Shown: piece after piece, positions 3,531 to 41,679 of the stretch | Numbering within the stretch: the first letter of the stretch is position 1 | Layout of the letters: each line of letters begins with the position of its first letter | Assembly (NCBI GenBank): GCA_018895765.1 | Contig: JAHINX010000061.1 | Location: forward strand, 1-41,944 | Direction: 5' to 3' | DNA length: 41,944 bases | DNA from: Patescibacteria group bacterium | GTDB lineage: Bacteria > Patescibacteriota > Patescibacteriia > GCA-002772895 | Position numbers and translations under genes: made by a program | The notes under the pieces: model-generated | The model's database searches: none | What the model was told of the DNA's origin: nothing | What the model saw: only the letters and a program-made list of their open reading frames with translations

Positions 3531-4955
3531 ATGAAAGTTATTATCATGGGTCTGGGTTTATATGAAAAAGGAAGCGGCATTTCTGCCGCCAAGTTTTTTA
3601 TTGAAAAAGGCGACGAAGTTTTGATTACTGACTTAAAAGAGAGAAAGGAGTTGCTGCGTCAGATAAAAGAATTGGAAAAATTTTGCAAGAATCATAATAA
3701 AAAAATGCCCATACTTCATCTTGGTGGACATAAAGAAGATGATTTTAAAAGTGTAGATATTGTGATGCGGAATCCCGGCGTGCCAAAGGATTCGCTTTTT
3801 TTAAAAATCGCGCGAAAAGCCGGAGCGCAAATAGAAACCGATGTTACTATTTTTATGAAAAATTGCCACGCGATGGTTATTGGCGTAACAGGCACCCGTG
3901 GAAAAAGCACCACAGCATCTTTGATCTATGAAATATTGAAAAAATCCCCCCTAACCCCCCTTTGCAAAAGGGGGGAGAAAGGGGGAATTTGGCTTGGCGG
4001 AAATATAAAAATTTCTCCGCTTTCGTTTATAGAAAAAGTTAAGCCAAGCGATATTGTTGTTTTGGAATTTTCAAGCTGGATGCTGGAAAACTTTTCTGAA
4101 TATAAAATTGCCCCGCATATTGCTGTTATCACAAATATTTATCCCGACCATTTAAATACTTACAAAAATATGGCAGAATATATTTCTGCCAAGAAAAATA
4201 TTTTTCAATATCAAAAGGCAGGAGATTATTTAGTTTTAAACGGAGAGAATAGGGAAACGAAAAAATGGAAAGGCTATGGAAAAACAATTTATTTTTATAA
4301 AGAAAATATTAAAAAGTTTTATAAATTGCCCATTAAATTGCAGGGTGAGCATAATTTAGAAAATATTAGCGCGGCATATGCAGTGGTAAAAATTATGAAG
4401 GTGCCAGTAGCAAAGATTGAAAAAGTTTTGAAAAAATTTAACGGCCTCTCCGATAGACAGGAGATAATCGCGCAAAATAAGGGGATAACTTTTGTTAATG
4501 ATACAACAGCTACAACGCCGGACGGAACAATCGCGGCTCTCCGTAGATTTGGCGCGAACCAAGAAATCAAGAAAACAAGAAAACAAAAAAACAAGAAAAC
4601 AAGAAAGCAAGAAAGCAAAAAAATCATCCTAATCTGTGGTGGAAGCGACAAGGGGCTAGACTATAAACAATTTGCAAAAGAAGCAAAAAAATATTGCAAA
4701 GCAGTAATATTTTTTCCGGGAACGGCGACGGAAAAAATAAATTATAAATTATCAATTATCAATTATCAATTAATTATTATGGCGAAAGACATGAACAGTG
4801 CGGTAAAAAAGGCAAGACAACAGGCCATTAGAGGAGATATTATATTATTGTCTCCAGCTGCTGCCAGTTTCGGTTTGTTTAAAAATGAATTTGACAGAGG
4901 AGAGGAATTTAAGAAAGTAGTAACACAGGTAACACAGAAAGAACAGCACAGATAA
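3531..4955 (+). CDS. murD: UDP-N-acetylmuramoylalanine--D-glutamate ligase
   Basis: GVTGTRGKSTT P-loop and C-terminal LLSPAAASFGLFKNEFDRGEEF (MurD signature). Carries three repeat-derived in-frame inserts (see findings). Confidence 0.85.
   Translation: MKVIIMGLGLYEKGSGISAAKFFIEKGDEVLITDLKERKELLRQIKELEKFCKNHNKKMPILHLGGHKEDDFKSVDIVMRNPGVPKDSLFLKIARKAGAQIETDVTIFMKNCHAMVIGVTGTRGKSTTASLIYEILKKSPLTPLCKRGEKGGIWLGGNIKISPLSFIEKVKPSDIVVLEFSSWMLENFSEYKIAPHIAVITNIYPDHLNTYKNMAEYISAKKNIFQYQKAGDYLVLNGENRETKKWKGYGKTIYFYKENIKKFYKLPIKLQGEHNLENISAAYAVVKIMKVPVAKIEKVLKKFNGLSDRQEIIAQNKGITFVNDTTATTPDGTIAALRRFGANQEIKKTRKQKNKKTRKQESKKIILICGGSDKGLDYKQFAKEAKKYCKAVIFFPGTATEKINYKLSIINYQLIIMAKDMNSAVKKARQQAIRGDIILLSPAAASFGLFKNEFDRGEEFKKVVTQVTQKEQHR
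3941..3990 (-). repeat. G-rich hairpin element, family A, inverted copy inside murD
   Basis: aaaaatcccccctaacccccctttgcaaaaggggggagaaagggggaattt is the reverse complement of the family seen at 17213-17310, 19410-19455 and 35907-35953. Translated in frame as SPLTPLCKRGEKGGI. Confidence 0.7.
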
Positions 4956-8350: not shown

Positions 8351-8707
8351 ATGTATAATTATATATTAAGCGATTTGGGATTTTTTGTTCTCAGGTTTTC
8401 TGTTGGCATTATACTCATAGCGCACGGTATCCCTAAAATAAGAACAAGAAAAGCGCCATTTACAACCGGATGGAAAAATTTGCTTTTAGGCATTTGGGAA
8501 CTTTTGGGCGGATTCCTTTTAGTTGCGGGATTGTGGATGAATTTTGTTGCAACTGGTTTAGCAATCGAAATGCTCGGAGCAATATATTTTCATATTTTGG
8601 TTTGGAAACAAGTATTTAAGGGTGGATGGGAATTACCTTTTCTAATTTTCTGCGCTCTTATTCTTTTAGCATTGACAGGAGGAGGGAACTGGCGTATCAT
8701 AATTTAG
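8351..8707 (+). CDS. DoxX-family membrane protein
   Basis: The track ORF at 8204 overlaps tRNA-Gly, so the internal ATG at 8351 is used. Sequence FVLRFSVGIILIAHGIPKI...LLGGFLLVAGL matches the DoxX pattern. Confidence 0.6.
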   Translation: MYNYILSDLGFFVLRFSVGIILIAHGIPKIRTRKAPFTTGWKNLLLGIWELLGGFLLVAGLWMNFVATGLAIEMLGAIYFHILVWKQVFKGGWELPFLIFCALILLALTGGGNWRIII

Positions 8708-8746
8708 ATATGCCAGCGCAAAATCAGTTTGTCTTCCCGCCTTTAT

Positions 8747-8818
8747 GCCGAAGTGGCTCAATGGTAGAGCAACGGTATCGTAAACCGTAGGTTGTGGGTT
8801 CGATTCCCACCTTCGGCT
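8747..8818 (+). tRNA. tRNA-Thr (anticodon CGT)
   Basis: Acceptor GCCGAAG/CTTCGGC, D arm GCTC-AATGGTA-GAGC, anticodon arm ACGGT-ATCGTAA-ACCGT, T arm GTGGG-TTCGATT-CCCAC. 72 nt. Confidence 0.9.
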
Positions 8819-8867
8819 ATGAAGGTGGGGAGGTAAAAAGATTTTGACTGGCTATTTTTAATTCCTA

Positions 8868-8900
8868 AATAGCTAAAAAGCTAAGTAGCTAAGTAGCTGA
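8868..8900. repeat. octamer tandem repeat (agctaaaa/agctaagt) directly before the ftsE start
   Basis: tagctaaaaagctaagtagctaagtagctga. TAA/TAG recur every 8 nt. Confidence 0.8.
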
Positions 8901-14730: not shown

Positions 14731-14786
14731 ATTATTTAATTATATCACAAGATAAAAAAATCCGAGATTTTCTCGGGTTTTTTTAT

Positions 14787-14814
14787 CTTCGGGGCTTGGA
14801 TTCGAACCAAGATA
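14787..14814 (-). pseudogene. tRNA 3' remnant (T arm plus degenerate acceptor strand)
   Basis: The minus strand reads TATCTTGGTTCGAATCCAAG-CCCCGAAG. The 20-mer at 14795-14814 is identical to 15875-15894 in the intact tRNA-Gln. No 5' half is present. Confidence 0.7.
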
Positions 14815-14857
14815 TTGTATTTATCTAAAACGATATACAATAAATATTTTTCTATTC

Positions 14858-14933: not shown

Positions 14934-15590
14934 ATGGCAAAAACAGGAGAAAAACAGATGAAAACAACGGATATGAAGAGTTTTTCTGTGAAAGAGTTGG
15001 TTGCATTGGGCAAGGCGAAGAGCGTTGGCAGGGAGGATTGGCTTAACGCTGTCGCCGAGGTCTATGGCGAGCTGACGGTTTCTGAACCGGCCCGCTCATG
15101 GAGGGAAGAGGACGGCGTCATCTACTTCTCGGTTACCTCTGACGGTACGACTGGCGAGGAGTGGATCAAGCGTCTAGGGGATAGGGACTTCTGTGTGAGC
15201 GACTATGCCAAGCAAATGCTTCGTTCCCCGGACTTCAAGCCGACCAATGGTGTGACGACCGAAGTCGCTGTTTTGAAGGGCATGCTCTTCGCGGACGACG
15301 ACCGGGTCACGAAGAAGATTCGTGCCAAAGCCAACAAGAGGAAGCTTGCGAAGCCGAATGCCGAGGTCGCCTGCCTCATTCGCGAGAAGTTCACGGATGG
15401 GGAGATCAAAGCCATAGGGCTCTACTGGATTCTCGTGATGCACGAGCCTATCGATAATTTTGGTGGTCGTCCGCGCCTCCTTTATGTTTGCCGCAGCGGC
15501 AGCGGTCGCTGGTTGTACGCGTGCTACGGCAGGCCTGACGGTAGGTGGGATCGTGAGTACGGGTTCGCGTTTGCCGTTCCGCAAGTGTAG
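14934..15590 (+). CDS. hypothetical protein, GC-rich (foreign composition)
   Basis: 218-aa ORF that is visibly much more GC-rich than its flanks. Alternative start ATG at 14958 follows AGGAG. Followed by terminator 15689-15716. Confidence 0.65.
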   Translation: MAKTGEKQMKTTDMKSFSVKELVALGKAKSVGREDWLNAVAEVYGELTVSEPARSWREEDGVIYFSVTSDGTTGEEWIKRLGDRDFCVSDYAKQMLRSPDFKPTNGVTTEVAVLKGMLFADDDRVTKKIRAKANKRKLAKPNAEVACLIREKFTDGEIKAIGLYWILVMHEPIDNFGGRPRLLYVCRSGSGRWLYACYGRPDGRWDREYGFAFAVPQV

Positions 15591-15731: not shown

Positions 15732-15756
15732 AAAAAATCCCAAGATGAACTTGAGA
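15732..15756 (-). terminator. rho-independent terminator of the tRNA-Gln transcription unit
   Basis: The minus strand reads TCTCAAG-TTCAT-CTTGGGA followed by T6, starting 10 nt after the outer tRNA 3' end. Confidence 0.7.
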
Positions 15757-15765
15757 CTTTTTTAT

Positions 15766-15982
15766 TTCCGGAGTAGGGATTCGAACCCCAATAGTCAGGA
15801 TCAAAACCTGAAGTCCTGGTTCACCCCGCCAGAGGCGTGGGTTGACCCAATCTATTTTTTACAAATTTCCGAGACTTGGATTCGAACCAAGATAGCGGGC
15901 TTCAAAGGCCCGAGTCCTACCATTAGACGATCTCGGAAAATTGTAAAAAAATGTACGGCGGGGCAAGTTAGACGACTCCGGA
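15766..15982 (-). pseudogene. split (outer) tRNA-Gln(UUG)-like gene interrupted in the D-loop by a 147-nt block
   Basis: 5' piece TCCGGAGTCGTCTAAC (15982-15967). 3' piece GGAC-T-TCAGG-TTTTGAT-CCTGA-CTAT-TGGGG-TTCGAAT-CCCTA-CTCCGGA-A (15816-15766). The acceptor strands are perfectly complementary. Confidence 0.65.
15867..15937 (-). tRNA. tRNA-Gln (anticodon TTG), intact, nested in the split gene
   Basis: TCCGAGA-TC-GTCT-AATGGTA-GGAC-T-CGGGC-CTTTGAA-GCCCG-CTAT-CTTGG-TTCGAAT-CCAAG-TCTCGGA-A. 71 nt, and all stems pair. Confidence 0.9.
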
Positions 15983-15992
15983 GTATGGAGTT

Positions 15993-16021
15993 ATAATAGC
16001 ATAATTTCAGAAAAATTGCAA
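15993..16021 (-). promoter_or_regulatory. promoter TTGCAA-17-TATTAT of the tRNA-Gln unit
   Basis: -35 at 16021-16016, -10 at 15998-15993. The outer tRNA 5' end begins 10 nt after the -10. Confidence 0.6.
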
Positions 16022-17212: not shown

Positions 17213-17310
17213 TTCCTCCCCGTCTTCTCCCCCTTAGGAGAAGGGGGACCCGGGGGGATTTAATAATTTTTAAGTCCCCCCTGCCCTTCTTTTTCAAAGG
17301 AGGGGACTTG
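17213..17310. repeat. family A G-rich hairpin elements, two copies arranged tail to tail
   Basis: tcttctcccccttaggagaagggggacccggggggatttaataat, followed by the inverted copy ttaagtcccccctgcccttctttttcaaaggaggggacttg. Confidence 0.7.
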
Positions 17311-18195: not shown

Positions 18196-21100
18196 TAAAA
18201 AAATCCTCTTTCTATAAAAAAGGAGGATTTTGGAATTTCAGATTTCAAATTTCAGATTTTAGATTTAATCTGATTAAATTATTTATACCGGTTATTTTGA
18301 TTGCCGGTTTTTTTGTCCCCTATTTTTCTTTTGCTTGGGACAGCCATTTTACCCATCGCGCCTTAACTTATGAAGCGGGAGAATTTTTTAATTATTTTAA
18401 TGATAGCCAACTAAGTGAAGAAGAAATTAATTGGCTGATGCAAGGAGCGCAAGAAGAAGATACTCCTCCGCGCTGGATAAACCATTTTTACAATCCAATA
18501 ACAGGCGAGGGTTGGACAGGCGATAAGCTGGGAGAAAACTCCCCAGGGCTTGTAAAATTTTTAAGCGGATTTTTTCTTTCTTCAAGAACTGCGCTTTCTG
18601 CAAAAAACTGGGCAAAAAACCGTTCCGCCCAAGCTGACTATTCATTATATAAAGGCGACCAAACCTGGCAAAAAGCGATTGATGCCTATTTGGAAGGGGA
18701 TAGAGAATCCGCTTTTGTTGCTTTGGGCCATATTCTTCATCTATTGGAAGATATGACGGTGCCGGACCATACGCGCGGAGACACTCATGCCGGCATTGTT
18801 GGCGACAAAGGAAGCCCCTTGGAAAATTGGGCAAAAGAATATAACAAAGACAAAATTGGCAAATTACAAACAGCAGAGGAATTATATAAGTCAGGCCAGA
18901 AGCCAAAAGATTTTTCAATTTTGGAAAATTATTTTGATTGGAATGCAAAATACAGTAGTGAAAATTTTTTTAGTGAGGATACAATAAATGAAAACTTAAT
19001 AGCTGTTCCAGAGTTAATTATTGGAGAAAATCAGCAAATTTACGGTTATATTAATAATTATCCCGTTTATACGGTAAAAGATAATAAAGAAACTATCAAT
19101 GATCCCCAAATCCTCACCGCTTATTGGCAGCGCCTCTCAAAGCAGGCAGTCATCTCCAGCGCCGGAGTAATAAATCTTTTTTTCAAAGAGGCCGAACGCC
19201 AATCAAAACTTCCGCAAAAAATGACAAAAAAGAGCAATACTACAACAAACACAATTTGGTCGCCATTTGGGGAGCTTACAAAATTATACAATACAGCAGT
19301 TCAGTTCGCGCAAGGTTTTTTCCCGCAAAGCACAAAAGCCGATGAATCGGTAAATGATGAGATTGTCACGTCGCAAGCTAATAGTGGTGACGAACGACTA
19401 TCAGAGCAAGCTTCTCCCCCTTCGGAGAAGGGGGATTTAGGGGGATTTAATAATAACCAATCAACAATAATCAATCAGCAATCAATAATTCCTGACCCGA
19501 CTCCCGCAAGCGAATCAATAACAGAGCCGGAAACAAATTTCTACGTCAGCCAGGTAATAGACGGCGATACGATTACGTTGAATAGCGGAGAAGATGTCCG
19601 TCTAATTGGTATGGATACGCCAGAACGCGGAGAAGAGTGTTTTGAAGAAGCAAAGCAGAAAATGGAATCAATGGTATTGGGCAAGAATATCCGTTTAGAA
19701 AAAGATACAAGTGAAACCGACAAATATAATCGGTTGTTACGTTATATTTATATAGACGGCGTGTTGGTAAATGCCGAGATGCTAAAAGAGGGATATGCGC
19801 ATCTTATGATGATACGGCCGGATACGAAATATTACAGCGCTTTCAAGTCATACGAAGAAGAAGCGAAATTTTTTGAACGCGGATGTTTATTTCAAAAGGA
19901 AGGCGTCGGTGGAGCCGATCCAATAGATGAAACGCCGGTATACACGGGCTGGTCATCAGCCGGCGGGAGTTCTAAGCCGGCGCCTCAAGCGCCAAAGGAA
20001 GAAACGCCGACTTCAACTCCGGAAACCGCCACCAGCACGTTGGAAGTAATTTTGGAAGATATAACTTCAACCTCAACTCCGCAAACTTCAACCTCAACTC
20101 CGCAAACTTCAACCTCAACTCCGGAAACTTCAACCTCAACTCCGGAAACCGCCACCAGCACGTTGGAAATCCCCGAAATTTTGCCAAATATTATTATAAA
20201 TGAAATACAGATTAGCGGAGGTCCGGGTGACACCGATAATGAATTTATAGAATTATATAATAATTCATCTGGCGCAGTTGATATTACTGATTGGAAATTA
20301 TTTAAAAAAACAGAAACGGTGCTGAGTTATAACCCTGATAAACAGCCTCCTGCGGAATATAATCTTGTTTCAAAATTCCCCACGGGCTCAACAATTCCAG
20401 CGAATTCGTATTTTCTTATTGTCCCCAAAAATGCCATTGGTAAACATGCGGATACGAATTATACCAACGGAAGCAATTTTGCCACGAGCGACGATACTCT
20501 TATTATAAGAGATGCGGACGGAAATATTATTGATAAAGTCGGTTTTGGCCTTGCGAATGACTATGAAGTACAACAAACGTATAATCCGCTGGACGGCCAA
20601 AGCATAAGCCGCACAAATTTTATCGACACGAATAATAATTTTAATGATTTTACGGTTTCCAGTTCAACGCCACAAGGGACAAGTAGCACTATGGCAATTG
20701 CGCCAGAACCAGAGCCGGAACCGGTTATTCCACCTGTCGTACCGGAACCGTCGGCGCCAACAATAGCTTGCACTACCTTTACTTACGGTACTCATAACAA
20801 AGAGGAAGGAGAAGCAGACAAAATCGCCGCCGAACCATTTCCGGATTTTTCAAATACATTAACTGTTACATTGGAAGCAGGGAAGACCTACTACACCGAC
20901 GATACAATATCCATTCCTAATAATAGAAAGTTAATAATAGAAGAAGGTGTGGTGTTAAAATTTGGAAGATGGCGCTGGGGAGGATGGATGAACTTTCCAA
21001 TCAGTTTGCGCATTTTAGGAGACCTGGAAGTAAATGGCACTGCTTCAAACCCGGTTATTTTTACAACTTTCCGCGATGACGCGCACGGCGTGGCGATTGA

Positions 21101-27048: not shown

Positions 27049-27126
27049 TGGTACCCCCGACCGGATTCGAACTGGCGAATACTGGCGTTAAAGGCTAGTC
27101 TCTTAAGCAAACTAGAGTACGGGGTA
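27049..27126 (-). pseudogene. tRNA-like sequence with UUA at the anticodon position and an encoded CCA; degenerate
   Basis: TACCCCG-TA-CTCT-AGTTTGCTTA-AGAG-A-CTAGC-CTTTAAC-GCCAG-TATTC-GCCAG-TTCGAAT-CCGGT-CGGGGGT-A-CCA. There is an A-C mismatch in both the anticodon and T stems, the 5' acceptor strand is one C short, and the D-loop has no GG. Confidence 0.45.
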
Positions 27127-30773: not shown

Positions 30774-32015
30774 ATGTTTAGTAAAAAAATGGCAAAAGCA
30801 TTAAATAACCTACCTGACAAGCCCGGCGTATATCTTTTTAAAGATAATCGTGGGGAAATTATTTATGTTGGCAAAGCCGGCTCATTAAAGCGGAGAGTAA
30901 AATCATATTTTGCGCGGGCAGGGGACAGAAAAACAGAAGCGCTTGTTTCGGAAGCTATTGATTTGGAAATCCGCGAAACGCCATCTGTTCTTGAAGCTCT
31001 GATTTTGGAAGCGGAACTTATAAAAAGATTAAAACCAAAATACAACATCCGCGATAAAGACGATAAGTCATTTATTTATGTCGGCATCACGCGGGAAGAT
31101 TTTCCAAAACCGATATTGGTGCGCGGGCATGAGTTGCAAGCTATGAATTCTAAGTTTCAAGTTTCTTTTGGGCCGTTTACCAGCGCCGGCGCGCTCCGTG
31201 AAGCGTTAAAAATTTTGCGCGGAATTTTTCCTTGGTCAGAGTGTAAACCAAACCAAAACAAACCATGTTTTTATTATGGCATTAAAAAATGTCCCGGTGT
31301 ATGCGTTGGCAAAATCAGTAAAAAAGATTATCAGAAAAACATTTCAGGTTTAAAATTATTTTTTCGCGGGAAGAAGACGCAAATTATAAAAAATCTGGAA
31401 CGCGAAATGAAAGAGGCTTCAAAAGATCGCGAGTTTGAGCGCGCGGCTGAATTTCGCAATAGGATTTATGCCCTAAACCATATTCATGATATTTCTTTGA
31501 TAAAAAAAGACGATTTTATGAACTGTAGGGCTCCCGAAGCCCTACAGCATAAAGCAATGGGCAGAATTGAGGGGTATGATATATCCAATATCAGCCAAAA
31601 GCTGGCAACCGGTTCTATGGTCGTTTTTAGAGATGGCGCGCCGGAAAAAAAAGAATATAAAAAATTTCGCATAAAAAATACCAAGTCCGGCGACGTGCCA
31701 ATGCTTCGCGAGGTTTTGACGCGCAGATTTAAAAATAATTGGCCAAGTCCTGATATAATTTTGATTGATGGAGGAGAAGCGCAGGTTGGCGTTGCGGAAA
31801 AAGTTTTGAAGGCAAACAAATTGAATATTCCGGTTATTGGCATTGCCAAGGGGATCTCCAGAAAAAACGACCGTTTTGTTTTTGATTATAATGACCAGGA
31901 ATTGAAAAGAATAACTAAAATTTTTGAAAATTTATTTAAACAGGTTCGCGATGAAGCGCATCGTTTTGCGATTGGCTACCATAGAAGTTTGCGGAAAATA
32001 AAACGGCCGTTATAA
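30774..32015 (+). CDS. uvrC: excinuclease ABC subunit C, short form without the C-terminal (HhH)2 domain
   Basis: GIY-YIG (PGVYLFKDNRGEIIYVGKAGSLKRRV), a UVR domain (FERAAEFRNRI) and an endonuclease domain (IEGYDISN...DGGEAQ...RDEAHRFAI). It ends after 413 aa. Confidence 0.85.
   Translation: MFSKKMAKALNNLPDKPGVYLFKDNRGEIIYVGKAGSLKRRVKSYFARAGDRKTEALVSEAIDLEIRETPSVLEALILEAELIKRLKPKYNIRDKDDKSFIYVGITREDFPKPILVRGHELQAMNSKFQVSFGPFTSAGALREALKILRGIFPWSECKPNQNKPCFYYGIKKCPGVCVGKISKKDYQKNISGLKLFFRGKKTQIIKNLEREMKEASKDREFERAAEFRNRIYALNHIHDISLIKKDDFMNCRAPEALQHKAMGRIEGYDISNISQKLATGSMVVFRDGAPEKKEYKKFRIKNTKSGDVPMLREVLTRRFKNNWPSPDIILIDGGEAQVGVAEKVLKANKLNIPVIGIAKGISRKNDRFVFDYNDQELKRITKIFENLFKQVRDEAHRFAIGYHRSLRKIKRPL
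31521..31547 (+). repeat. family B 27-nt hairpin element in uvrC
   Basis: aactgtagggctcccgaagccctacag. Stem gtagggct/agccctac, loop cccga. Translated as NCRAPEALQ. Confidence 0.85.
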
Positions 32016-35630: not shown

Positions 35631-37109
35631 ATGCCATACAAAAAATATAAAAAGATTCATTTTATAGGGATTGGCGGAATAGGCGTAAGCGCTGTTGCTA
35701 AGTGGGCGCTTTTGGAAGGCGTGGAGGTGAGCGGTTCCGATGTGGAAAATACAGAAATAACGAGTGAGCTTCAAAAAATGGGAGCCAAAATTTTTATTGG
35801 TCATAAAGAAAAAAACATTGCGCGTGATATTGACTTAATTGTTTATTCTTCGGCCGTGCCAGCCACAAATCCTGAACGCTCGGTTTTGAGACGGATACGC
35901 CACAGCAAGTCCCTTCCTTTGGAAAAGGAAGGACAGGATGGATTTAATAATGATTTAATTCCCCAGAAATCATATTTCGAATTTTTGGGAGAAATAACCC
36001 GTGGGAAAAAATTGATTGCAGTGTCAGGGACTAATGGCAAGAGCACGACAACGGCAATGCTGGGAAAAATTTTGATTGACGCCGGTCTTGACCCACTTGT
36101 TATCGTCGGTTCAAAAATAAATGTTTTTTCGCACGGCAATTTTAATTATGGAAAAGGGGAATACGCAGTCGTGGAGGCATGCGAGCATAACGCGCATATG
36201 TTGAATCTGCATCCATGGTCAATCGTTCTTACAAATATAGAAGCAGATCATTTGGATTTTTATAAAAATTTGGACAATATTCTGGAAGCGTTTAAAAAAT
36301 ATGTCGCCAAGATAGAAAAAGGATGTTTTCTAATATATAACGGCGATGATAAAAATAGCGCCGAGGTGGCAAAAACTCACGCTTGCCGTCTTATTTCCTA
36401 TGGCGTGCATGAAGATGCGGACTTGCGGTTTGAAGAGCGCCATATCGATAAAGGCACACAGATTTTTCAAACAAAAACTGTAGGGCTCCCGAAGCCCTAC
36501 CAGATGGAATTGCAAGTACCTGGGCTTTTTAATGTTTATAATGCGATGGCGGCAATATCTATGGCAAAGGCGCTTGGTATCAAATTTGAGGTAATAAAAA
36601 AATCGCTTGCAAATTTTCGCGGGCTTTGGCGCAGGTTTGAGCACGTTGGAGAATATAATGGCGCGCCAATTATTTCCGATTACGGCCACCATCCGCACGC
36701 GATAGAAGCAACGCTTTTGGCCGCACGCGAATTTTATCCGGATAGAAGAGTTATATTAGCATACGAACCACACCAGCACCATAGGACAAAGGCTCTTTTT
36801 GCCGATTTTGTCCGCAGTTTCGACAAGGCAGATGTTCTTATTTTGGGAGAGATATATAATGTAGAAGGAAGAGTCGAAAAACAAGATTGTGATATATCTT
36901 CGCGCAAACTTGCAGACGCAATTATAAAGTATTGGGAATCGGATGAAAATAAAAAGGAGCGTACAGAGCACGAATTATTTTATTGTGAAAATAATGATGA
37001 AGTTTTGAAAGCGCTGAAAGAGACAATAAACTCCGACGACGTTGTGATAATTATGGGAGCAGGGGGGATTTACAAAGTTGCAAAAAGATTGATTGCCGCG
37101 GATTCCTAG
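35631..37109 (+). CDS. murC: UDP-N-acetylmuramate--L-alanine ligase
   Basis: The start is set at MPYKKYKKIHFIGIGGIGVSAVA. GTNGKSTT and DYGHHPHAIEATL. Carries a family A insert (35907-35953) and a family B insert (36476-36503). Confidence 0.9.
   Translation: MPYKKYKKIHFIGIGGIGVSAVAKWALLEGVEVSGSDVENTEITSELQKMGAKIFIGHKEKNIARDIDLIVYSSAVPATNPERSVLRRIRHSKSLPLEKEGQDGFNNDLIPQKSYFEFLGEITRGKKLIAVSGTNGKSTTTAMLGKILIDAGLDPLVIVGSKINVFSHGNFNYGKGEYAVVEACEHNAHMLNLHPWSIVLTNIEADHLDFYKNLDNILEAFKKYVAKIEKGCFLIYNGDDKNSAEVAKTHACRLISYGVHEDADLRFEERHIDKGTQIFQTKTVGLPKPYQMELQVPGLFNVYNAMAAISMAKALGIKFEVIKKSLANFRGLWRRFEHVGEYNGAPIISDYGHHPHAIEATLLAAREFYPDRRVILAYEPHQHHRTKALFADFVRSFDKADVLILGEIYNVEGRVEKQDCDISSRKLADAIIKYWESDENKKERTEHELFYCENNDEVLKALKETINSDDVVIIMGAGGIYKVAKRLIAADS
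35907..35953 (+). repeat. family A hairpin element (diverged copy) inside murC
   Basis: aagtcccttcctttggaaaaggaaggacaggatggatttaataatgat is translated as KSLPLEKEGQDGFNNDL. Confidence 0.6.
36476..36503 (+). repeat. family B hairpin element in murC
   Basis: aactgtagggctcccgaagccctaccag is translated as TVGLPKPYQ. Confidence 0.85.
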
Positions 37110-39015: not shown

Positions 39016-41679
39016 ATGTTCTTCTCCGACCCAAACAAAAAAGCGTTAAAAAGAATGCAGCCATTTGTGGATAAAACCAATGAGCTGGAACCAGCATTTG
39101 AAAAAATGTCTGATTTTGATTTGCAAAATAAAAGCAAAGAACTAAAAACGCAGGCTCAAACAACTGTAGGGCTCCCGAAACCCTATAGTTTAGATGATAT
39201 TTTGCCTGAGGCGTTTGCCTTAGTGCGCGAAGCGGCAAAGAGAACATTGGGACAGCGTCATTTCGACGTTCAGCTCTTGGGCGGAGTCGTTCTTCATAAT
39301 GGAGAAATCGCGGAGATGAAAACCGGTGAAGGAAAAACCTTAACTTCCACTTTGGCGGTATATCTAAATGCTTTGGCAGGAAGGGGAGCGCACGTTGTTA
39401 CTGTAAATGATTATCTTTCCCGCCGTGACGCCATATGGATGGGGCAGATTTTTGGATTTTTAGGTCTTTCGGTTGGTATTATCAACCATATGCAGTCATT
39501 TCTATATGACGCGAGCTGGAAGGCGGAAACGCCGGAAGAATCGGAAGAAGCTGACCGCAAACGCGACCTTTATGCCAGCTTCCGTGTAAATGAGGATTTT
39601 TTGCGCCCATGTTCCCGCAAAGAAGCATATGACGCGGACATTACTTACGGCACAAACAATGAATTTGGTTTTGATTATTTGCGTGACAATATGGCAACTC
39701 GGCTGGAGGATAGAGTTCAGCGCGAATTTTATTATGCGATTGTGGATGAAGTAGATTCTATTTTAATTGATGAGGCGCGTACCCCGCTCATTATCTCGGC
39801 GCCAGCAGAAGAATCTGGCGAAATGTATGCCCGCTTTGCCCGTATTGTAAAAAATTTAAAAGAAGACGAAGATTATAATCTAGATTTAAAAATGCGCGCC
39901 GCAACGCTTACGGATGCAGGCGTGGATAAAATAGAAAAAGCGCTTAATATTCCGAATATTTATGCTGAAGGCGGAATAAAAATGGTCCATCATCTTGAGC
40001 AGGCCTTAAAAGCTGAAACACTTTTTCACCGTGACAAGGAATACGTAATCCGAGACGGAGAAGTTTTTATTGTTGATGAATTTACTGGCCGGTTAATGCC
40101 TGGTAGGAGATATAGCGAAGGGCTTCATCAGGCGATTGAGGCCAAAGAGGGCGTAAAAGTTCAGCGCGAAAACCAGACGCTAGCCAGCGTTACATTTCAA
40201 AATTATTTTAGAATGTATGAAAAGCTCGCCGGTATGACCGGCACGGCCTTGACGGAAGCGGAAGAATTTTCAAAAATTTATTTTCTTGAAACTGTGGCCA
40301 TGCCGACAAATAAGCCATTATCAAGAAAGGATTTTCCGGACAGAATTTATAAAAATAAAAAAGGAAAAATCCGCGCGGTAATAGAAGAGGTGAAAGAACT
40401 TCAGGCAAAAGGACAGCCAGTATTGGTTGGTACGGTATCGGTTGAAGAGAATGAAGAATTTAGCGAAAAATTTGAAAAAGCAGGCATACGCCATGAAATT
40501 TTGAATGCAAAAAATCATGCCCGTGAAGCGGAGATTATTGCTCAGGCAGGCAAAAAGGGCGCGGTGACTCTAGCTACCAATATGGCAGGCAGAGGCGTTG
40601 ATATTGTCTTGGGTGGTGCTCCATATAATGAGAAAGCGGCCGAAGAAATCCGCGTTTTGGGAGGCTTAGCGGTAATTGGCACTGAACGGCACGAATCGCG
40701 CCGGATCGATAATCAGCTCCGCGGACGCGCCGGACGCCAGGGCGATCCGGGCTTTAGTCGTTTTTATGTATCCTTGGAAGATGAACTGATGCGTATTTTT
40801 GCGGCCGAAAAGATAGGATATATAATGGAAAAGCTGGGTCTTCCGGAAGATACGCCGATTGAAAACGGAATGGTTTCAAAGGCTATTGAATCAGCCCAGA
40901 AAAAAGTTGAAGGACATAATTTTGATATCAGAAAGCACTTACTTGAGTATGATGATGTTATAAATCGTCATCGCGAAGCGATTTATTCACGCAGAAGAAG
41001 CATTTTGGAACGGGAGAACATAAAAGAAGATATATTAAAAATAATAGAAGACGAGCTGGAGCAGGTGATTGTTTTTCATACTTCCGATCCGGCACGTAAA
41101 AATTGGAATTTAAAAGAAATATGGCAGGTGGCAAATACAATTTTTTCTTTAGAAAAAGAAGTATTAGCAAAATTTTCAGAGATTTTGGCAGGCGAGGGGA
41201 GCGACAATCTTAGCGTCGTAAAACGCAGAGACGCGATGGTTGAGATTTTGGTTAAAAAAATGCGAGAAGAATACGAAAAAATGGAAAGTAGAATGATTGA
41301 ACAATCTGGAAACCGCGAAATTTTGCGCCAGATTGAAAAAGGCCTTAGTATGCGCGTTCTTGATACTTTATGGATAAGCCATCTTGAAGAAATTGATTAT
41401 TTACGTACAAGTATCGGTTTGCGTGGAATTGCCGGCAAAGATCCTTTGGTGGAATTTAAGCGCGAAGCATATCGCCTTTGGAATGAGCTCCAGTCCGCAA
41501 TTGATAAGCAAATGGCGTACTCTATTTTTAAAATTGAACTTGCGCAGAATATGGCCCCCCAGTCTCCCTTTAAAAATCAAAACGTGAATGCTCCTTTAGA
41601 GCAAAAAGAAAAAGCTGGTCGCAATGATCCTTGTCCCTGTGGAAGCGGTAAAAAATACAAAAAATGCTGTGGCGTGTAA
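39016..41679 (+). CDS. secA: preprotein translocase ATPase SecA
   Basis: 887 aa. LPEAFALVREA, MKTGEGKTL, DEVDSILIDEARTPLIIS, and the C-terminal zinc motif CPCGSGKKYKKCCG. Confidence 0.95.
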   Translation: MFFSDPNKKALKRMQPFVDKTNELEPAFEKMSDFDLQNKSKELKTQAQTTVGLPKPYSLDDILPEAFALVREAAKRTLGQRHFDVQLLGGVVLHNGEIAEMKTGEGKTLTSTLAVYLNALAGRGAHVVTVNDYLSRRDAIWMGQIFGFLGLSVGIINHMQSFLYDASWKAETPEESEEADRKRDLYASFRVNEDFLRPCSRKEAYDADITYGTNNEFGFDYLRDNMATRLEDRVQREFYYAIVDEVDSILIDEARTPLIISAPAEESGEMYARFARIVKNLKEDEDYNLDLKMRAATLTDAGVDKIEKALNIPNIYAEGGIKMVHHLEQALKAETLFHRDKEYVIRDGEVFIVDEFTGRLMPGRRYSEGLHQAIEAKEGVKVQRENQTLASVTFQNYFRMYEKLAGMTGTALTEAEEFSKIYFLETVAMPTNKPLSRKDFPDRIYKNKKGKIRAVIEEVKELQAKGQPVLVGTVSVEENEEFSEKFEKAGIRHEILNAKNHAREAEIIAQAGKKGAVTLATNMAGRGVDIVLGGAPYNEKAAEEIRVLGGLAVIGTERHESRRIDNQLRGRAGRQGDPGFSRFYVSLEDELMRIFAAEKIGYIMEKLGLPEDTPIENGMVSKAIESAQKKVEGHNFDIRKHLLEYDDVINRHREAIYSRRRSILERENIKEDILKIIEDELEQVIVFHTSDPARKNWNLKEIWQVANTIFSLEKEVLAKFSEILAGEGSDNLSVVKRRDAMVEILVKKMREEYEKMESRMIEQSGNREILRQIEKGLSMRVLDTLWISHLEEIDYLRTSIGLRGIAGKDPLVEFKREAYRLWNELQSAIDKQMAYSIFKIELAQNMAPQSPFKNQNVNAPLEQKEKAGRNDPCPCGSGKKYKKCCGV
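39162..39188 (+). repeat. family B hairpin element in secA
   Basis: aactgtagggctcccgaaaccctatag is translated as TVGLPKPYS, just upstream of the conserved LPEAFA segment. Confidence 0.85.

What the first reader, a model, noticed from the sequence alone, without database searches (positions are those of the whole stretch)
15766..15982. An intact tRNA-Gln gene nested inside a second, split tRNA-Gln gene
This reads the minus strand from the promoter TTGCAA-17-TATTAT (16021-15993). Ten nt after the -10 comes TCCGGAGTCGTCTAAC (15982-15967). That is a tRNA 5' acceptor strand, positions 8-9 and the start of a D stem, and it is nearly identical to the first 16 nt of the intact tRNA-Gln (TCCGAGATCGTCTAAT). 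Its perfectly complementary acceptor strand CTCCGGA-A lies about 200 nt downstream (15773-15766). That strand closes a complete anticodon arm (TCAGG-TTTTGAT-CCTGA, anticodon UUG), variable loop and T arm. A hairpin-plus-T6 terminator (15756-15732) follows. Between the two pieces is a 147-nt block (15820-15966) that carries the canonical 71-nt tRNA-Gln(UUG) at 15867-15937. The block ends are complementary: GCCCCGCC (15964-15957) pairs with GGCGGGGT (15830-15823). The inner tRNA is also bracketed by a perfect 10-bp inverted repeat, TTTTTTACAA (15950-15941) and TTGTAAAAAA (15864-15855), which extends its acceptor stem. The promoter and terminator therefore frame the outer gene, and a self-complementary cassette holding a complete isoacceptor sits in its D-loop. 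Two readings are possible. The cassette could be a tRNA-carrying insertion that killed and functionally replaced its target. Alternatively, excision of the inner tRNA by RNase P and RNase Z could leave two outer halves held together by the GC clamp, giving a split tRNA. I know of no bacterial precedent for either. The outer D-loop lacks GG, which favours the pseudogene reading.
Basis: seen in the sequence. Interest (0 to 1): 0.8.

Follow-up and report, generated by a model that had tools for sequence, protein, structure and literature searches.

The report
tRNA gene nested inside another tRNA
A glutamine tRNA gene of an uncultured CPR (Patescibacteria) bacterium has been split in its D-loop by a 147-base hairpin-ended cassette carrying a second, complete glutamine tRNA, and the same tRNA-in-tRNA nesting recurs, up to three or four levels deep, in dozens of other CPR genomes, apparently undescribed.

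Summary
On the minus strand, a promoter-like site is followed by 16 nt of a tRNA-Gln 5' end. Next comes a 147-nt cassette: GC clamp, AU helix, complete tRNA-Gln(UUG), AU helix, GC clamp. The remaining 54 nt of the outer tRNA-Gln(UUG) and a terminator follow.

Deleting the cassette in silico gives a clean cloverleaf. A relative (L004) carries the uninterrupted orthologue behind the same promoter, so a contiguous ancestor existed.

The case is not unique. A pattern scan of species-representative genomes returned 61 loci, almost all CPR. About 30 show the same nesting, with insertions in D, anticodon or T loops. The cassette ends are conserved (CYTG-CCCC...GGGG-TGAA) and their helix covaries. Some loci also carry empty GC hairpins, and nesting reaches 3-4 levels. 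A tRNA-Gly in L004 is nested too.

Outer genes range from intact (window, L013, L042) to heavily decayed. Inner tRNAs are always intact, and inner and outer share an anticodon wherever this can be read.

Best reading: a self-compensating insertion cassette replaces its target. The inner tRNA is expressed from the host promoter and the outer halves become leader and trailer. A functional split or spliced outer tRNA is not excluded. How the cassette moves is unknown.

The parts
15993..16021 (-). Promoter-like site of the outer gene: TTGCAA, 17 nt, (TG)TATTAT, ending 10 nt before the outer +1.
   Evidence: The spacing is the same, and 41/55 bases are identical, as at the promoter plus 5' end of the uninterrupted orthologue in L004.
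15967..15982 (-). Outer tRNA-Gln 5' exon: acceptor strand TCCGGAG, positions 8-9 (TC), D-stem strand GTCT, and D-loop AAC.
   Evidence: It is orthologous to L004 TCCGGGGTCGTCTAAC.
15820..15966 (-). 147-nt insertion cassette in the outer D-loop.
   Evidence: Deleting it restores a cloverleaf. Its ends, CTTG-CCCCGCC...GGCGGGG-TGAA, are shared with cassettes in L013, L019, L069, L047 and L057.
15956..15966 (-). GC clamp, 5' strand: TTGCCCCGCCG.
   Evidence: It pairs with 15831-15821 in the MFE fold, forming 11 bp including 3 G.U. The helix covaries across 7 cassettes.
15941..15950 (-). AU helix, 5' strand: TTTTTTACAA. It continues the inner acceptor stem.
   Evidence: repeat I1: 20 nt, 95% complementary.
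15867..15937 (-). Inner, intact tRNA-Gln(UUG), 71 nt, with no encoded CCA.
   Evidence: Rfam 64.3 bits and an ARAGORN call. It is 45/70 identical to the outer gene. Its closest relatives are inner tRNAs of other nested loci, with L014 at 63/71.
15855..15864 (-). AU helix, 3' strand: TTGTAAAAAA.
15821..15831 (-). GC clamp, 3' strand: TGGCGGGGTGA.
   Evidence: It doubles as the pseudo-acceptor in the marginal contiguous Rfam hit at 15833-15766.
15766..15819 (-). Outer tRNA-Gln(UUG) 3' exon: D-loop CCA, D-stem strand GGAC, anticodon arm TCAGG-TTTTGAT-CCTGA, variable loop, T arm, acceptor strand CTCCGGA and discriminator A.
   Evidence: nhmmer 28.7 bits covering model positions 20-70. It is 97.7% identical over 43 nt to uninterrupted tRNA-Gln genes L071-L074.
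15732..15762 (-). Intrinsic terminator of the compound transcription unit.
   Evidence: A homologous hairpin follows the uninterrupted genes in L004 and L007.
14787..14816 (-). Relic of a third tRNA-Gln: variable loop, T arm, acceptor 3' strand CCCCGAA and discriminator. A terminator follows at about 14777-14752. The T arm is 20/20 identical to that of the inner tRNA.
   Evidence: (repeat family D8), and (19.2 bits, E = 2.7e-5). No 5' partner was found.

Best explanation
The locus is a resident tRNA-Gln(UUG) gene that was interrupted in its D-loop, between positions 16 and 18-20. The interrupting sequence is a 147-nt non-coding cassette whose two ends are complementary and which carries a complete tRNA-Gln(UUG) of a different sequence lineage.

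Proposed working (inferred):
1. The cassette has no promoter of its own. The whole unit is transcribed from the resident promoter to the resident terminator as a precursor of about 230 nt.
2. In that RNA, the cassette ends form an 11-bp GC clamp plus a 10-bp AU helix that prolongs the inner acceptor stem. This is a leader-trailer 'processing stalk' that lets the inner tRNA fold on its own.
3. RNase P and the 3'-end machinery release the inner tRNA, and CCA is added afterwards.
4. The two outer pieces are left as leader and trailer. The outer gene is functionally replaced and free to decay.

Shown: the anatomy, the orthology to an uninterrupted gene, the predicted fold, and the existence of a family of such cassettes with conserved ends, a covarying stalk and a decay series of outer genes.

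Inferred: transcription, processing, non-function of the outer halves, and mobility.

How the cassette gets in is unknown. Insertions sit in or at the edge of the D, anticodon and T loops, and tRNAs also sit inside GC hairpins. I therefore suspect a mechanism that targets the loops of DNA or RNA hairpins.
For: Anatomy and fold.

A contiguous ancestor existed. L004 has the uninterrupted orthologue with the same promoter at the syntenic position between the VIT gene and thymidine kinase. L071-L074 carry uninterrupted genes with an identical anticodon arm.

Inner and outer belong to different lineages. They are 45/70 identical, and the inner is closest to inner tRNAs of other nested loci.

A family exists.
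- The scan for TCGTCTAA-N20-50-TCGTCTAAYGGTAGGAC returned 61 loci.
- About 20 of these show both halves of an outer gene around a complete inner tRNA, and about 10 more show a 5' remnant plus clamp.
- Nesting reaches 3-4 levels in L056 and L057.
- A tRNA-Gly in L004 is nested.

Cassette ends and stalk.
- The ends CYTG-CCCC..GGGG-TGAA recur at D-loop, anticodon-loop and T-loop sites, with or without a tRNA inside.
- The clamp helix is 88.6% paired, against 68% when shuffled and 41-47% when slid. Eight of 15 pairs show double changes.
- Leader-trailer duplexes are -17.8 to -37.4 kcal/mol in nested loci, against -6.5 to -12.9 kcal/mol for un-nested tRNA-Gln.

Decay series of outer genes.
- Intact: window, L013, L042.
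- Intact exons with three insertions: L060.
- One or two mismatches: L037.
- Decayed T arm or acceptor: L059.
- Truncated or unpaired: L019, L032, L039, L044, L069.
- 3' exon gone: L053, L021, L065, L040, L016.
- Syntenic relatives L061, L066 and L023 share one insertion but differ in outer state.

Replacement logic. Inner and outer have the same anticodon in all of about 11 pairs where both can be read.

In the window, the outer D-loop has lost the G found in the sister cassettes (TGAA|CCA against TGAA|GTA).
Against: - No expression or processing data exist, so non-function of the outer halves is inferred.
- In the window all four outer stems are still perfect. This fits a young insertion but equally fits selection.
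- L060 keeps perfect outer exons despite three insertions, which is odd for a dead gene.
- No transposase, integrase, target-site duplication or second cassette copy was found in the window, so mobility is not demonstrated.
- Some inner and outer pairs are nearly identical (L037 38/38, L059 49/50, L056 40/40). This points to self-duplication or gene conversion rather than an incoming element.
- The extended helix pairs the -1 base with the discriminator, which is not an ideal RNase P substrate (my own knowledge).
- The locus set comes from one narrow sequence pattern, and roughly 10 of the 61 hits look like chance upstream 8-mers.
Confidence: 0.62

Rival explanations
1. The outer gene is a functional two-piece (split) tRNA. 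RNase P and RNase Z (or RNase III acting on the stalk) cut out the inner tRNA. The outer 5' and 3' pieces then stay together through the acceptor stem, D stem and GC clamp, and act as a second tRNA-Gln(UUG) carrying an extra arm in the D-loop.
For: All outer stems are perfect in the window, L013 and L042. The clamp plus outer stems are predicted to form. The clamp covaries and keeps a conserved G.U pair, which suggests constraint at the RNA level. Fragmented rRNAs held together by base pairing are known in bacteria (my own knowledge).
Against: - Most outer genes in the family are decayed, truncated or lack the 3' exon, while the clamp and inner tRNA persist.
- Several outer genes carry a hairpin in the anticodon loop (L019, L037, L060, L022), and the T loop is replaced in L057. 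Neither is compatible with decoding unless the insertion is spliced out.
- The window outer D-loop has no G18/G19 although the T loop is canonical TTCGAAT.
- Inner and outer share the anticodon, so the second tRNA would be redundant.
Confidence: 0.12
2. The cassette is a true intervening sequence. After or together with release of the inner tRNA, the outer exons are ligated (for example by an RtcB-type or Rnl-type ligase), giving a contiguous functional outer tRNA. This would be a bacterial, protein-dependent tRNA intron that hosts a tRNA.
For: Insertions are precise in several loci, and removing them restores canonical loops: L037 TTTTG|GT, L042 AATGG|TA, L039 and L060 TGGTAG|GAC. Multiple insertions with intact exons in L060 resemble the multi-intron tRNAs of Thermoproteales (my own knowledge). 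The conserved cassette ends could be a recognition site.
Against: - There is no bulge-helix-bulge motif. The junction is a 3 x 4 internal loop between the D stem and the clamp.
- No group I or other known ribozyme is detected.
- In the window and its sister cassettes, removal leaves a defective D-loop (AACCCA or AACGTA). In L057 it leaves a non-canonical T loop.
- The widespread decay of outer exons argues against a spliced, functional product.
- No splicing enzyme has been identified.
Confidence: 0.07
3. There is no split gene. The locus is a tandem pair: the intact tRNA-Gln followed by a contiguous, degenerate tRNA-Gln at 15833-15766. The upstream 16-mer would be an unrelated leftover or a chance match.
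For: Rfam RF00005 scores 15833-15766 at 29.4 bits, just above the gathering score of 29. The 3' clamp strand GGCGGGGTGAA resembles a tRNA 5' end.
Against: - That hit has an acceptor mismatch and almost no D arm, and ARAGORN does not call it.
- The 16-mer pairs 7/7 with the 3' acceptor strand and sits behind the orthologous promoter at the orthologous distance.
- The same GGGG-TGAA end flanks cassettes in anticodon and T loops, where it cannot be an acceptor strand.
- The deletion construct gives a far better cloverleaf.
Confidence: 0.04
4. The structure is a metagenome assembly artefact: a chimeric join at repeated tRNA sequence.
For: The sequence comes from a metagenome-assembled genome. The two tRNA-Gln copies share the 9-mer TCGTCTAAY and the 11-mer GGTTCGAATCC.
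Against: - A second assembly record is identical, although it may derive from the same reads.
- The cassette has unique, mutually complementary ends that a repeat-induced misjoin would not create.
- The same architecture occurs in dozens of independent assemblies, including records deposited as complete chromosomes, such as OY969472.1 (L031).
Confidence: 0.02

Closest known systems
Archaeal interrupted tRNA genes. These include bulge-helix-bulge introns at non-canonical positions, the mobile multi-intron tRNAs of Thermoproteales, and the split or tri-split tRNAs of Nanoarchaeum and Caldivirga. Source: my own knowledge, plus the summary in PMC10714607.
   Same: A tRNA gene is interrupted in the D, anticodon or T loop. 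GC-rich complementary sequences hold the halves together. Several insertions can occur in one gene. Related intervening sequences are found at different sites and in different genes.
   Different: The organism is a bacterium (CPR). No bulge-helix-bulge motif is present. Both halves lie in one transcription unit. The intervening sequence carries a complete tRNA. Outer genes commonly decay, whereas archaeal hosts remain functional.
Integrative elements that target tRNA genes and carry a copy of the tRNA 3' part in attP, so that integration restores the gene (my own knowledge).
   Same: The logic is self-compensating insertion into a tRNA gene: the incoming DNA supplies what it destroys. The relic at 14816-14787 shares a 20-nt T-arm repeat with the inner tRNA, which is reminiscent of an att duplication.
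   Different: The cassette is 147 nt long and non-coding, with no integrase. It carries a whole tRNA rather than a 3' part. The outer pieces are complementary halves, not direct repeats. The cassette ends are inverted repeats.
Palindromic mini-elements and hairpin-loop targeting. Examples are REP/BIME with RAYT transposases, Rickettsia palindromic elements inserted inside genes, and IS1397/ISKpn1, which insert into REP loops (my own knowledge).
   Same: Short GC-rich palindromes are inserted inside genes. Empty hairpins such as CCTGCCCCGCC-NNN-GGCGGGGTGAA are found in tRNA loops. Insertion sites are hairpin loops.
   Different: Here the palindrome encloses a functional tRNA. So far it has been seen only in tRNA genes within the 564 kb examined. 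No associated transposase is known, and the element is not multicopy in the window.
Intervening sequences of bacterial 23S and 16S rRNA that RNase III removes without religation, leaving fragmented rRNA, together with rRNA leader-trailer processing stalks (my own knowledge).
   Same: An extended helix replaces a loop. A leader-trailer stalk flanks the mature RNA. The host RNA might stay functional in pieces.
   Different: The host is a tRNA, the insert contains another tRNA, and RNase III cleavage has not been tested.
Bacterial group I introns in tRNA anticodon loops (cyanobacteria and some proteobacteria; my own knowledge).
   Same: A bacterial tRNA gene is interrupted by an intervening sequence.
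   Different: The cassette is in the D-loop, is 147 nt long, has no group I core and gives no Rfam hit.
Dada DNA transposons of eukaryotes, which target specific sites in tRNA and snRNA genes (PMC3706591).
   Same: These are elements specialised on small-RNA genes.
   Different: They are eukaryotic, encode a DDE transposase and make 6-7 bp target-site duplications. They rely on the target being multicopy rather than carrying a replacement.

Membership tests
Archaeal-type BHB tRNA intron or split tRNA | A bulge-helix-bulge motif (two 3-nt bulges separated by a 4-bp helix) at the exon-intron junctions. | tested here: not met
   In the predicted fold the junction is a roughly symmetric internal loop (AAC on one side, ACCA on the other) between the 4-bp D stem and an 11-bp clamp. 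I tried to build a BHB by hand on the window, L019 and L060 junctions and could not.
Archaeal-type BHB tRNA intron or split tRNA | The halves are encoded at separate loci, each with its own promoter (split tRNA). | tested here: not met
   Both halves lie between one promoter-like site and one terminator, 217 nt apart end to end.
Archaeal-type BHB tRNA intron or split tRNA | A splicing endonuclease (EndA) and a ligase are encoded in the genome. | not testable with these tools
   Only 42 kb of the genome is held, so the full MAG could not be screened.
Bacterial group I intron in a tRNA gene | A group I ribozyme core, located in the anticodon loop. | tested here: not met
   There is no RF00028 or other intron hit at the gathering score or at E <= 10, and none in 18 nested loci. 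The cassette is 147 nt long and sits in the D-loop.
Integrase-mediated island at a tRNA gene (attL/attR) | A direct repeat of the tRNA 3' part flanks an element that encodes a tyrosine or serine recombinase. | tested here: not met
   The outer pieces are non-overlapping halves, and the cassette has no ORF. The relic at 14816-14787 does share a 20-nt direct repeat with the inner tRNA. However, no integrase lies between them. The only gene there is a DGR-target-like ORF.
MITE or REP-like palindromic element | Terminal inverted repeats. | tested here: met
   The clamp is TTGCCCCGCCG / TGGCGGGGTGA. The same ends occur in other genomes.
MITE or REP-like palindromic element | A target-site duplication. 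| tested here: not met
   No consistent duplication is seen at the junctions of the window, L013, L042, L037 or L060. L059 alone may have a GTA duplication.
MITE or REP-like palindromic element | Many dispersed copies per genome. | tested here: inconclusive
   There is one exact copy of the end motif in the 42-kb window, and near-matches occur at the chance level. A clamp of similar style flanks tRNA-Thr. The whole genome is not available.
Tandem tRNA duplication with a contiguous pseudogene | The second copy is a contiguous cloverleaf with its own 5' acceptor strand. | tested here: not met
   The contiguous reading scores 29.4 bits, with an acceptor mismatch and no D arm. The split reading gives four perfect stems and is orthologous to an uninterrupted gene.
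rRNA-type intervening sequence or processing stalk | An extended helix that RNase III cleaves. | not testable with these tools
   The inner acceptor stem, AU helix and clamp are predicted to form one long helix. Cleavage needs an experiment.

The most novel reading that the evidence does not exclude
CPR bacteria harbour a previously undescribed class of self-compensating genetic element. It is a small, protein-less cassette made of a complete tRNA inside a conserved GC-clamped processing stalk. The cassette inserts into the hairpin loops of a tRNA gene with the same anticodon, takes over its promoter, and is itself the next target. This produces Russian-doll tRNA genes and continual turnover of tRNA loci. 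Alternatively, or in addition, the clamp marks a CPR-specific RNA-processing pathway that removes such inserts or tolerates fragmented tRNAs.
Probability: 0.4. Interest if true: 0.9.

Novelty: new variant of a known kind. Interest (0 to 1): 0.8.

Why it matters
Interrupted, split and permuted tRNA genes are textbook oddities of archaea and a few eukaryotes. In bacteria only group I introns are known. If this finding holds, it matters in four ways.

1. It adds a bacterial form of tRNA gene disruption. The interrupting sequence carries a working replacement and the process is recursive.

2. It explains why tRNA finders see odd partial hits and 'missing' or duplicated tRNAs in CPR genomes.

3. 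It offers a natural system for asking how much insertion a tRNA scaffold tolerates. It also offers conserved RNA or DNA ends (CYTG-CCCC...GGGG-TGAA) with which to search for the unknown enzyme that makes or processes them.

4. It bears on the long-running debate about whether split tRNAs are ancestral or derived. Here the split state is clearly derived from a contiguous gene.

Tried and rejected
- BHB intron: hand and MFE inspection of the junctions found no bulge-helix-bulge motif.
- Group I or other known RNA families: there are no hits in the window or in 18 nested loci.
- Phage origin: the nested pattern has 0 hits in IMG/VR. The 24 hits to GGGGTGAAGTAGGAC are all non-tRNA chance matches.
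- Empty-site allele of the same species: the metagenome scan found only uninterrupted genes of other species.
- Closest thymidine kinase relatives (P0002, P0004): their contigs are too short or carry no tRNA upstream.
- Link to diversity-generating retroelements: the neighbouring ORF (14934-15590) belongs to a family that sits next to bAvd and a reverse transcriptase elsewhere. No RT, Avd or ORF homologue occurs in the window or in any nested locus, so I dropped the association.
- G.U versus A.C asymmetry, as a test of RNA-level selection on the stalks: 64 G.U on the sense strand against 46 on the antisense strand after refolding, which is inconclusive.
- My spliced-alignment dynamic programme picks up spurious micro-exons, for example GGT inside the window cassette. 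I used it only as a guide and read the loci by eye.
- MAFFT misaligned the L004 5' half to the window clamp. I replaced this with a direct ungapped comparison.
- Literature: six full-text searches found no description of nested tRNA genes in CPR.
Full report
**Observation**

- A promoter-like site: TTGCAA (16021-16016), 17 nt, TG-TATTAT (15998-15993). The promoter scan also finds it.
- Ten bases later, TCCGGAGTCGTCTAAC (15982-15967).
- A 147-nt block (15966-15820) that contains a canonical 71-nt tRNA-Gln(UUG) at 15937-15867. Rfam scores it 64.3 bits and ARAGORN calls it.
- CCAGGAC-T-TCAGG-TTTTGAT-CCTGA-CTAT-TGGGG-TTCGAAT-CCCTA-CTCCGGA-A (15819-15766).
- A terminator at 15762-15732.

The repeat finder confirms three pairings: the outer acceptor (8/8, 200 nt apart), the GC clamp (7/7), and a 20-nt, 95% complementary repeat made of the AU helix plus the inner acceptor stem.

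Several results show this is more than chance.
- TCGTCTAAY occurs only twice in the window, both here.
- A tRNA-Gln profile hits the 3' piece at E = 2.8e-8 over model positions 20-70, exactly complementary to the 5' piece.
- Deleting 15966-15820 in silico yields a 70-nt tRNA-Gln(UUG) with four sound stems. Its D-loop, AACCCA, lacks G18/G19.
- The 217-nt RNA is predicted to fold into outer acceptor, outer D stem, an 11-bp clamp (TTGCCCCGCCG/TGGCGGGGTGA, three G.U pairs), the 10-bp AU helix and the inner tRNA. The energy is -86.7 kcal/mol, z = -5.2.
- An NCBI assembly of the same organism is identical across the locus.

**Organism and orthology**

The window is from a Patescibacteria (CPR) genome, GCA_022012845.1. 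Relatives whose thymidine kinase is 64-75% identical keep the same gene order, Dus ... VIT ... tRNA-Gln ... TK - DUF5679, and each has a single uninterrupted tRNA-Gln there.

L004 (GCA_042568305.1) carries tRNA-Gln(UUG) on the same strand behind the same promoter. Of 55 positions from the -35 element through TCCGGGGTCGTCTAAC, 41 are identical and the spacing is identical. The terminator hairpin is also alignable.

A metagenome scan for an empty site found four uninterrupted tRNA-Gln(UUG) genes in other species. Their anticodon and T arms are 97.7% identical to the outer 3' piece over 43 nt.

The two outer pieces are therefore the halves of a once-contiguous resident gene.

The inner tRNA belongs to a different lineage. 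It is 45/70 identical to the outer gene, and its nearest relatives are inner tRNAs of other nested loci, for example L014 at 63/71.

**The case is not unique**

I scanned one genome per species (GTDB) for a tRNA-Gln 5' fragment 20-50 nt upstream of an intact tRNA-Gln 5' end (TCGTCTAA-N20-50-TCGTCTAAYGGTAGGAC). This returned 61 loci, nearly all CPR MAGs.

Against random sequence the expectation is below 0.1. Against the fairer null, a chance 8-mer upstream of real tRNA-Gln genes, perhaps ten hits are expected. About ten hits do indeed look like chance.

The remaining hits fall into two classes.

Class A, about 30 loci, is the window's architecture: outer 5' exon, one clamp strand, a complete inner tRNA-Gln, the other clamp strand, and then an outer 3' exon, a decayed one, or none.
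- Insertion points are the D-loop (window, L013, L019, L042, L022, L037, L059 and others), the loop edge of the D stem (L039, L060), the anticodon loop or stem (L032, the L053 group, L061) and the T loop (L056, L057).
- L056 and L057 are nested three to four levels deep.
- Several outer genes carry additional 'empty' GC hairpins in their anticodon or T loops. An example is CCTGCCCCGCC-GTG-GCGGGGTGAA in L060; others are in L019, L022, L037 and L047.
- The tRNA-Gly(CCC) of L004 is nested in the same way, with two empty hairpins in the outer T loop. The phenomenon is therefore not Gln-specific.

Class B, about 15 loci and mostly Microgenomates-like, has a leader hairpin whose 5' strand is an exact copy of tRNA positions 1 to about 20. 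I did not pursue it further.

**The cassette**

Its ends are conserved across genomes and across insertion sites. The 5' end is C-Y-Y-G-CCCC(G)CC and the 3' end is GG(C)GGGG-TGAA or -TAAA.

I aligned seven cassettes by hand, anchored on CCCC/GGGG.
- The clamp helix is 88.6% paired, against 68% after shuffling and 41-47% when the partner strand is slid.
- Eight of 15 pairs show changes on both sides.
- The CCCC/GGGG core is invariant, and one G.U pair is kept in 6 of 7 cassettes.
- This is a small, hand-picked set.

Leader-trailer duplexes around inner tRNAs are -17.8 to -37.4 kcal/mol, with the window at -24.2. The same windows around eight un-nested tRNA-Gln genes give -6.5 to -12.9 kcal/mol.

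Homologous cassettes occur both in syntenic relatives, implying vertical inheritance (L061/L066/L023 and L053/L065/L040), and in non-syntenic contexts (L013/L069, L039/L060, L053/L021).

No known RNA family matches the inserts. No protein is encoded in them.

**Is the outer gene alive?**

Across the family the outer genes form a decay series.
- Fully intact: window, L013, L042.
- Intact exons despite three insertions: L060.
- One acceptor mismatch and one D-stem mismatch: L037.
- T stem and acceptor decayed: L059.
- Truncated or unpaired: L019, L032, L039, L044, L069.
- Only the 5' remnant and clamp left: L053, L021, L065, L040, L016.
- Three syntenic relatives that share one insertion differ in outer state (L061, L066, L023).

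Inner tRNAs are always intact; Rfam calls only them. Where both anticodons can be read, in about 11 pairs, they are identical. That is expected if the insert must replace what it disrupts, or if it is a copy of its host.

In the window the outer D-loop has diverged from its sister cassettes (TGAA|CCA against TGAA|GTA) and has no G to meet the canonical T loop.

Together this favours the reading that insertion inactivates the outer gene, the inner tRNA takes over its promoter and terminator, and the outer halves persist for a while as leader and trailer.

I put this at about 0.6. The perfect stems in the window, and L060's intact exons, keep the split-tRNA reading (about 0.12) and the intron reading (about 0.07) alive. 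Neither can be excluded without RNA data.

**Mechanism of insertion**

This is unknown. I found no transposase, integrase, consistent target-site duplication or second copy in the window.

Some inner and outer pairs are almost identical (L037, L059, L056). Others, including the window, are clearly different lineages. Both self-copying or gene conversion and import therefore seem to occur.

Insertions sit in or at the edge of the loops of tRNA hairpins, and tRNAs also sit inside GC hairpins. From this I infer a process that targets hairpin loops, whether in single-stranded DNA or in RNA followed by reverse transcription. This is inference only.

The locus itself looks like a turnover hot spot. 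A third tRNA-Gln relic lies 950 nt downstream at 14816-14787: a T arm 20/20 identical to the inner tRNA, a different acceptor strand, and its own terminator.

**Comparison with known systems**

The nearest analogues are listed here.
- Archaeal interrupted and split tRNAs. These share loop insertions, GC-rich pairing and mobile introns. They differ in depending on BHB motifs, and their hosts stay functional.
- tRNA-targeting integrative elements. These share the self-compensating logic but are large and integrase-driven, and they duplicate only the tRNA 3' part.
- REP elements, Rickettsia palindromic elements and IS1397. These are palindromes inserted in genes or into hairpin loops, but they carry no tRNA cargo.
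- rRNA intervening sequences and processing stalks.
- Eukaryotic Dada transposons (PMC3706591).

None combines a complete replacement tRNA, conserved complementary ends and recursive nesting. Six full-text literature searches found no description of this. The searched library lacks most subscription journals, so prior description cannot be ruled out.

**Verdict**

The finding generalises to a widespread CPR phenomenon that appears undescribed.

I rate it a new variant of known kinds (interrupted tRNA genes, and self-compensating insertions in tRNA genes), with interest 0.8. I give a 0.4 chance that it represents a genuinely new class of element or processing pathway.

Noticed in passing
window 8712-8853 (+), around tRNA-Thr(CGU) at 8747-8818: tRNA-Thr is flanked by a strong leader-trailer stalk. 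It consists of CTTCCCGCCTT/AAGGTGGGGAG (11 bp, 2 G.U), AAAATC/GATTTT and GCCAG/CTGGC. The duplex is -40.6 kcal/mol and the fold of 8701-8870 is -71.5 kcal/mol. The clamp has the same style as the Gln cassette. The L004 orthologue has no stalk. This may be a fully replaced, formerly nested gene.
   Followed up: partly
L004 490-740 (+), around tRNA-Gly(CCC) at 552-622: A nested tRNA-Gly. Upstream lies a 34-nt outer 5' piece, GCGGGTATAGTATAGTGGTAGTACGTCTGCTTCC, which runs up to the anticodon. Downstream lies an outer T arm interrupted by two empty GC hairpins (TGCGCCCCAGGCGCA and CCCGCCTAGGGCGGG), then the acceptor strand TATCCGC and CCA. Nesting is therefore not restricted to tRNA-Gln.
   Followed up: partly
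window 14752-14816 (-): A solo 3' fragment of a third tRNA-Gln (variable loop, T arm, acceptor strand CCCCGAA) followed by its own terminator. The T arm is 20/20 identical to that of the inner tRNA. No 5' partner was found.
   Followed up: partly
window 14934-15590 (+): A 218-aa ORF with no Pfam or PHROG match lies between the relic and the nested locus. Its homologues (1955 hits, 70-77% identity across CPR classes) sit next to bAvd and a reverse transcriptase elsewhere, so they look like DGR target proteins. Here there is no RT or Avd, so this is an orphan copy. Local GC is raised (0.45).
   Followed up: partly
window 27049-27126 (-): A tRNA-like gene lies 2 nt after tRNA-Lys(UUU). ARAGORN calls it a suppressor with anticodon UUA, and Rfam scores it 37.9 bits. 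The acceptor TACCCCG/CGGGGTA is perfect and CCA is encoded, but the anticodon stem is poor.
   Followed up: no
L012, L028, L041, L046, L049-L052, L064, L068, L045, L070, L062, L063, L017 (leaders of tRNA-Gln): In about 15 mostly Microgenomates-like genomes, the tRNA-Gln leader is a hairpin of about 50 nt (-14 to -27 kcal/mol). Its 5' strand is an exact copy of tRNA positions 1 to about 20 and its 3' strand is the complement. The copy tracks the tRNA's own acceptor sequence from genome to genome. It could be a regulatory or processing device, or a derived form of nesting.
   Followed up: partly
L057 6050-6550 (+) and L056 1680-2100 (+): Three- to four-level 'Russian doll' tRNA-Gln genes with T-loop insertions (CTAGG|CCCG-CCCCC...GGGGG-TGAA|AGTCCTAG). 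In L057 the outermost 5' piece pairs with the 3' end of a different level, which suggests recombination between the nested copies.
   Followed up: partly
window 17224-17267, 19411-19454, 35908-35951 and 3955-3990: A small family of palindromic repeats, CTTCTCCCCCTTnGGAGAAGGGGGA...GGGGGATTTAATAAT, lies in intergenic regions. It is unrelated in sequence to the tRNA clamp.
   Followed up: no
window 15977-15989 and 15767-15779 (-): The leader just before and into the outer 5' exon (TCCATACTCCGGA) is 12/13 identical to the outer 3' end (TCCCTACTCCGGA). This is partly because TCCGGA is a palindrome. Its significance is unclear.
   Followed up: no
window 31521-31545, 36476-36500, 39162-39186 (+): Three copies of a 25-nt hairpin-containing repeat, AACTGTAGGGCTCCCGAAGCCCTAC. 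Two copies are identical.
   Followed up: no
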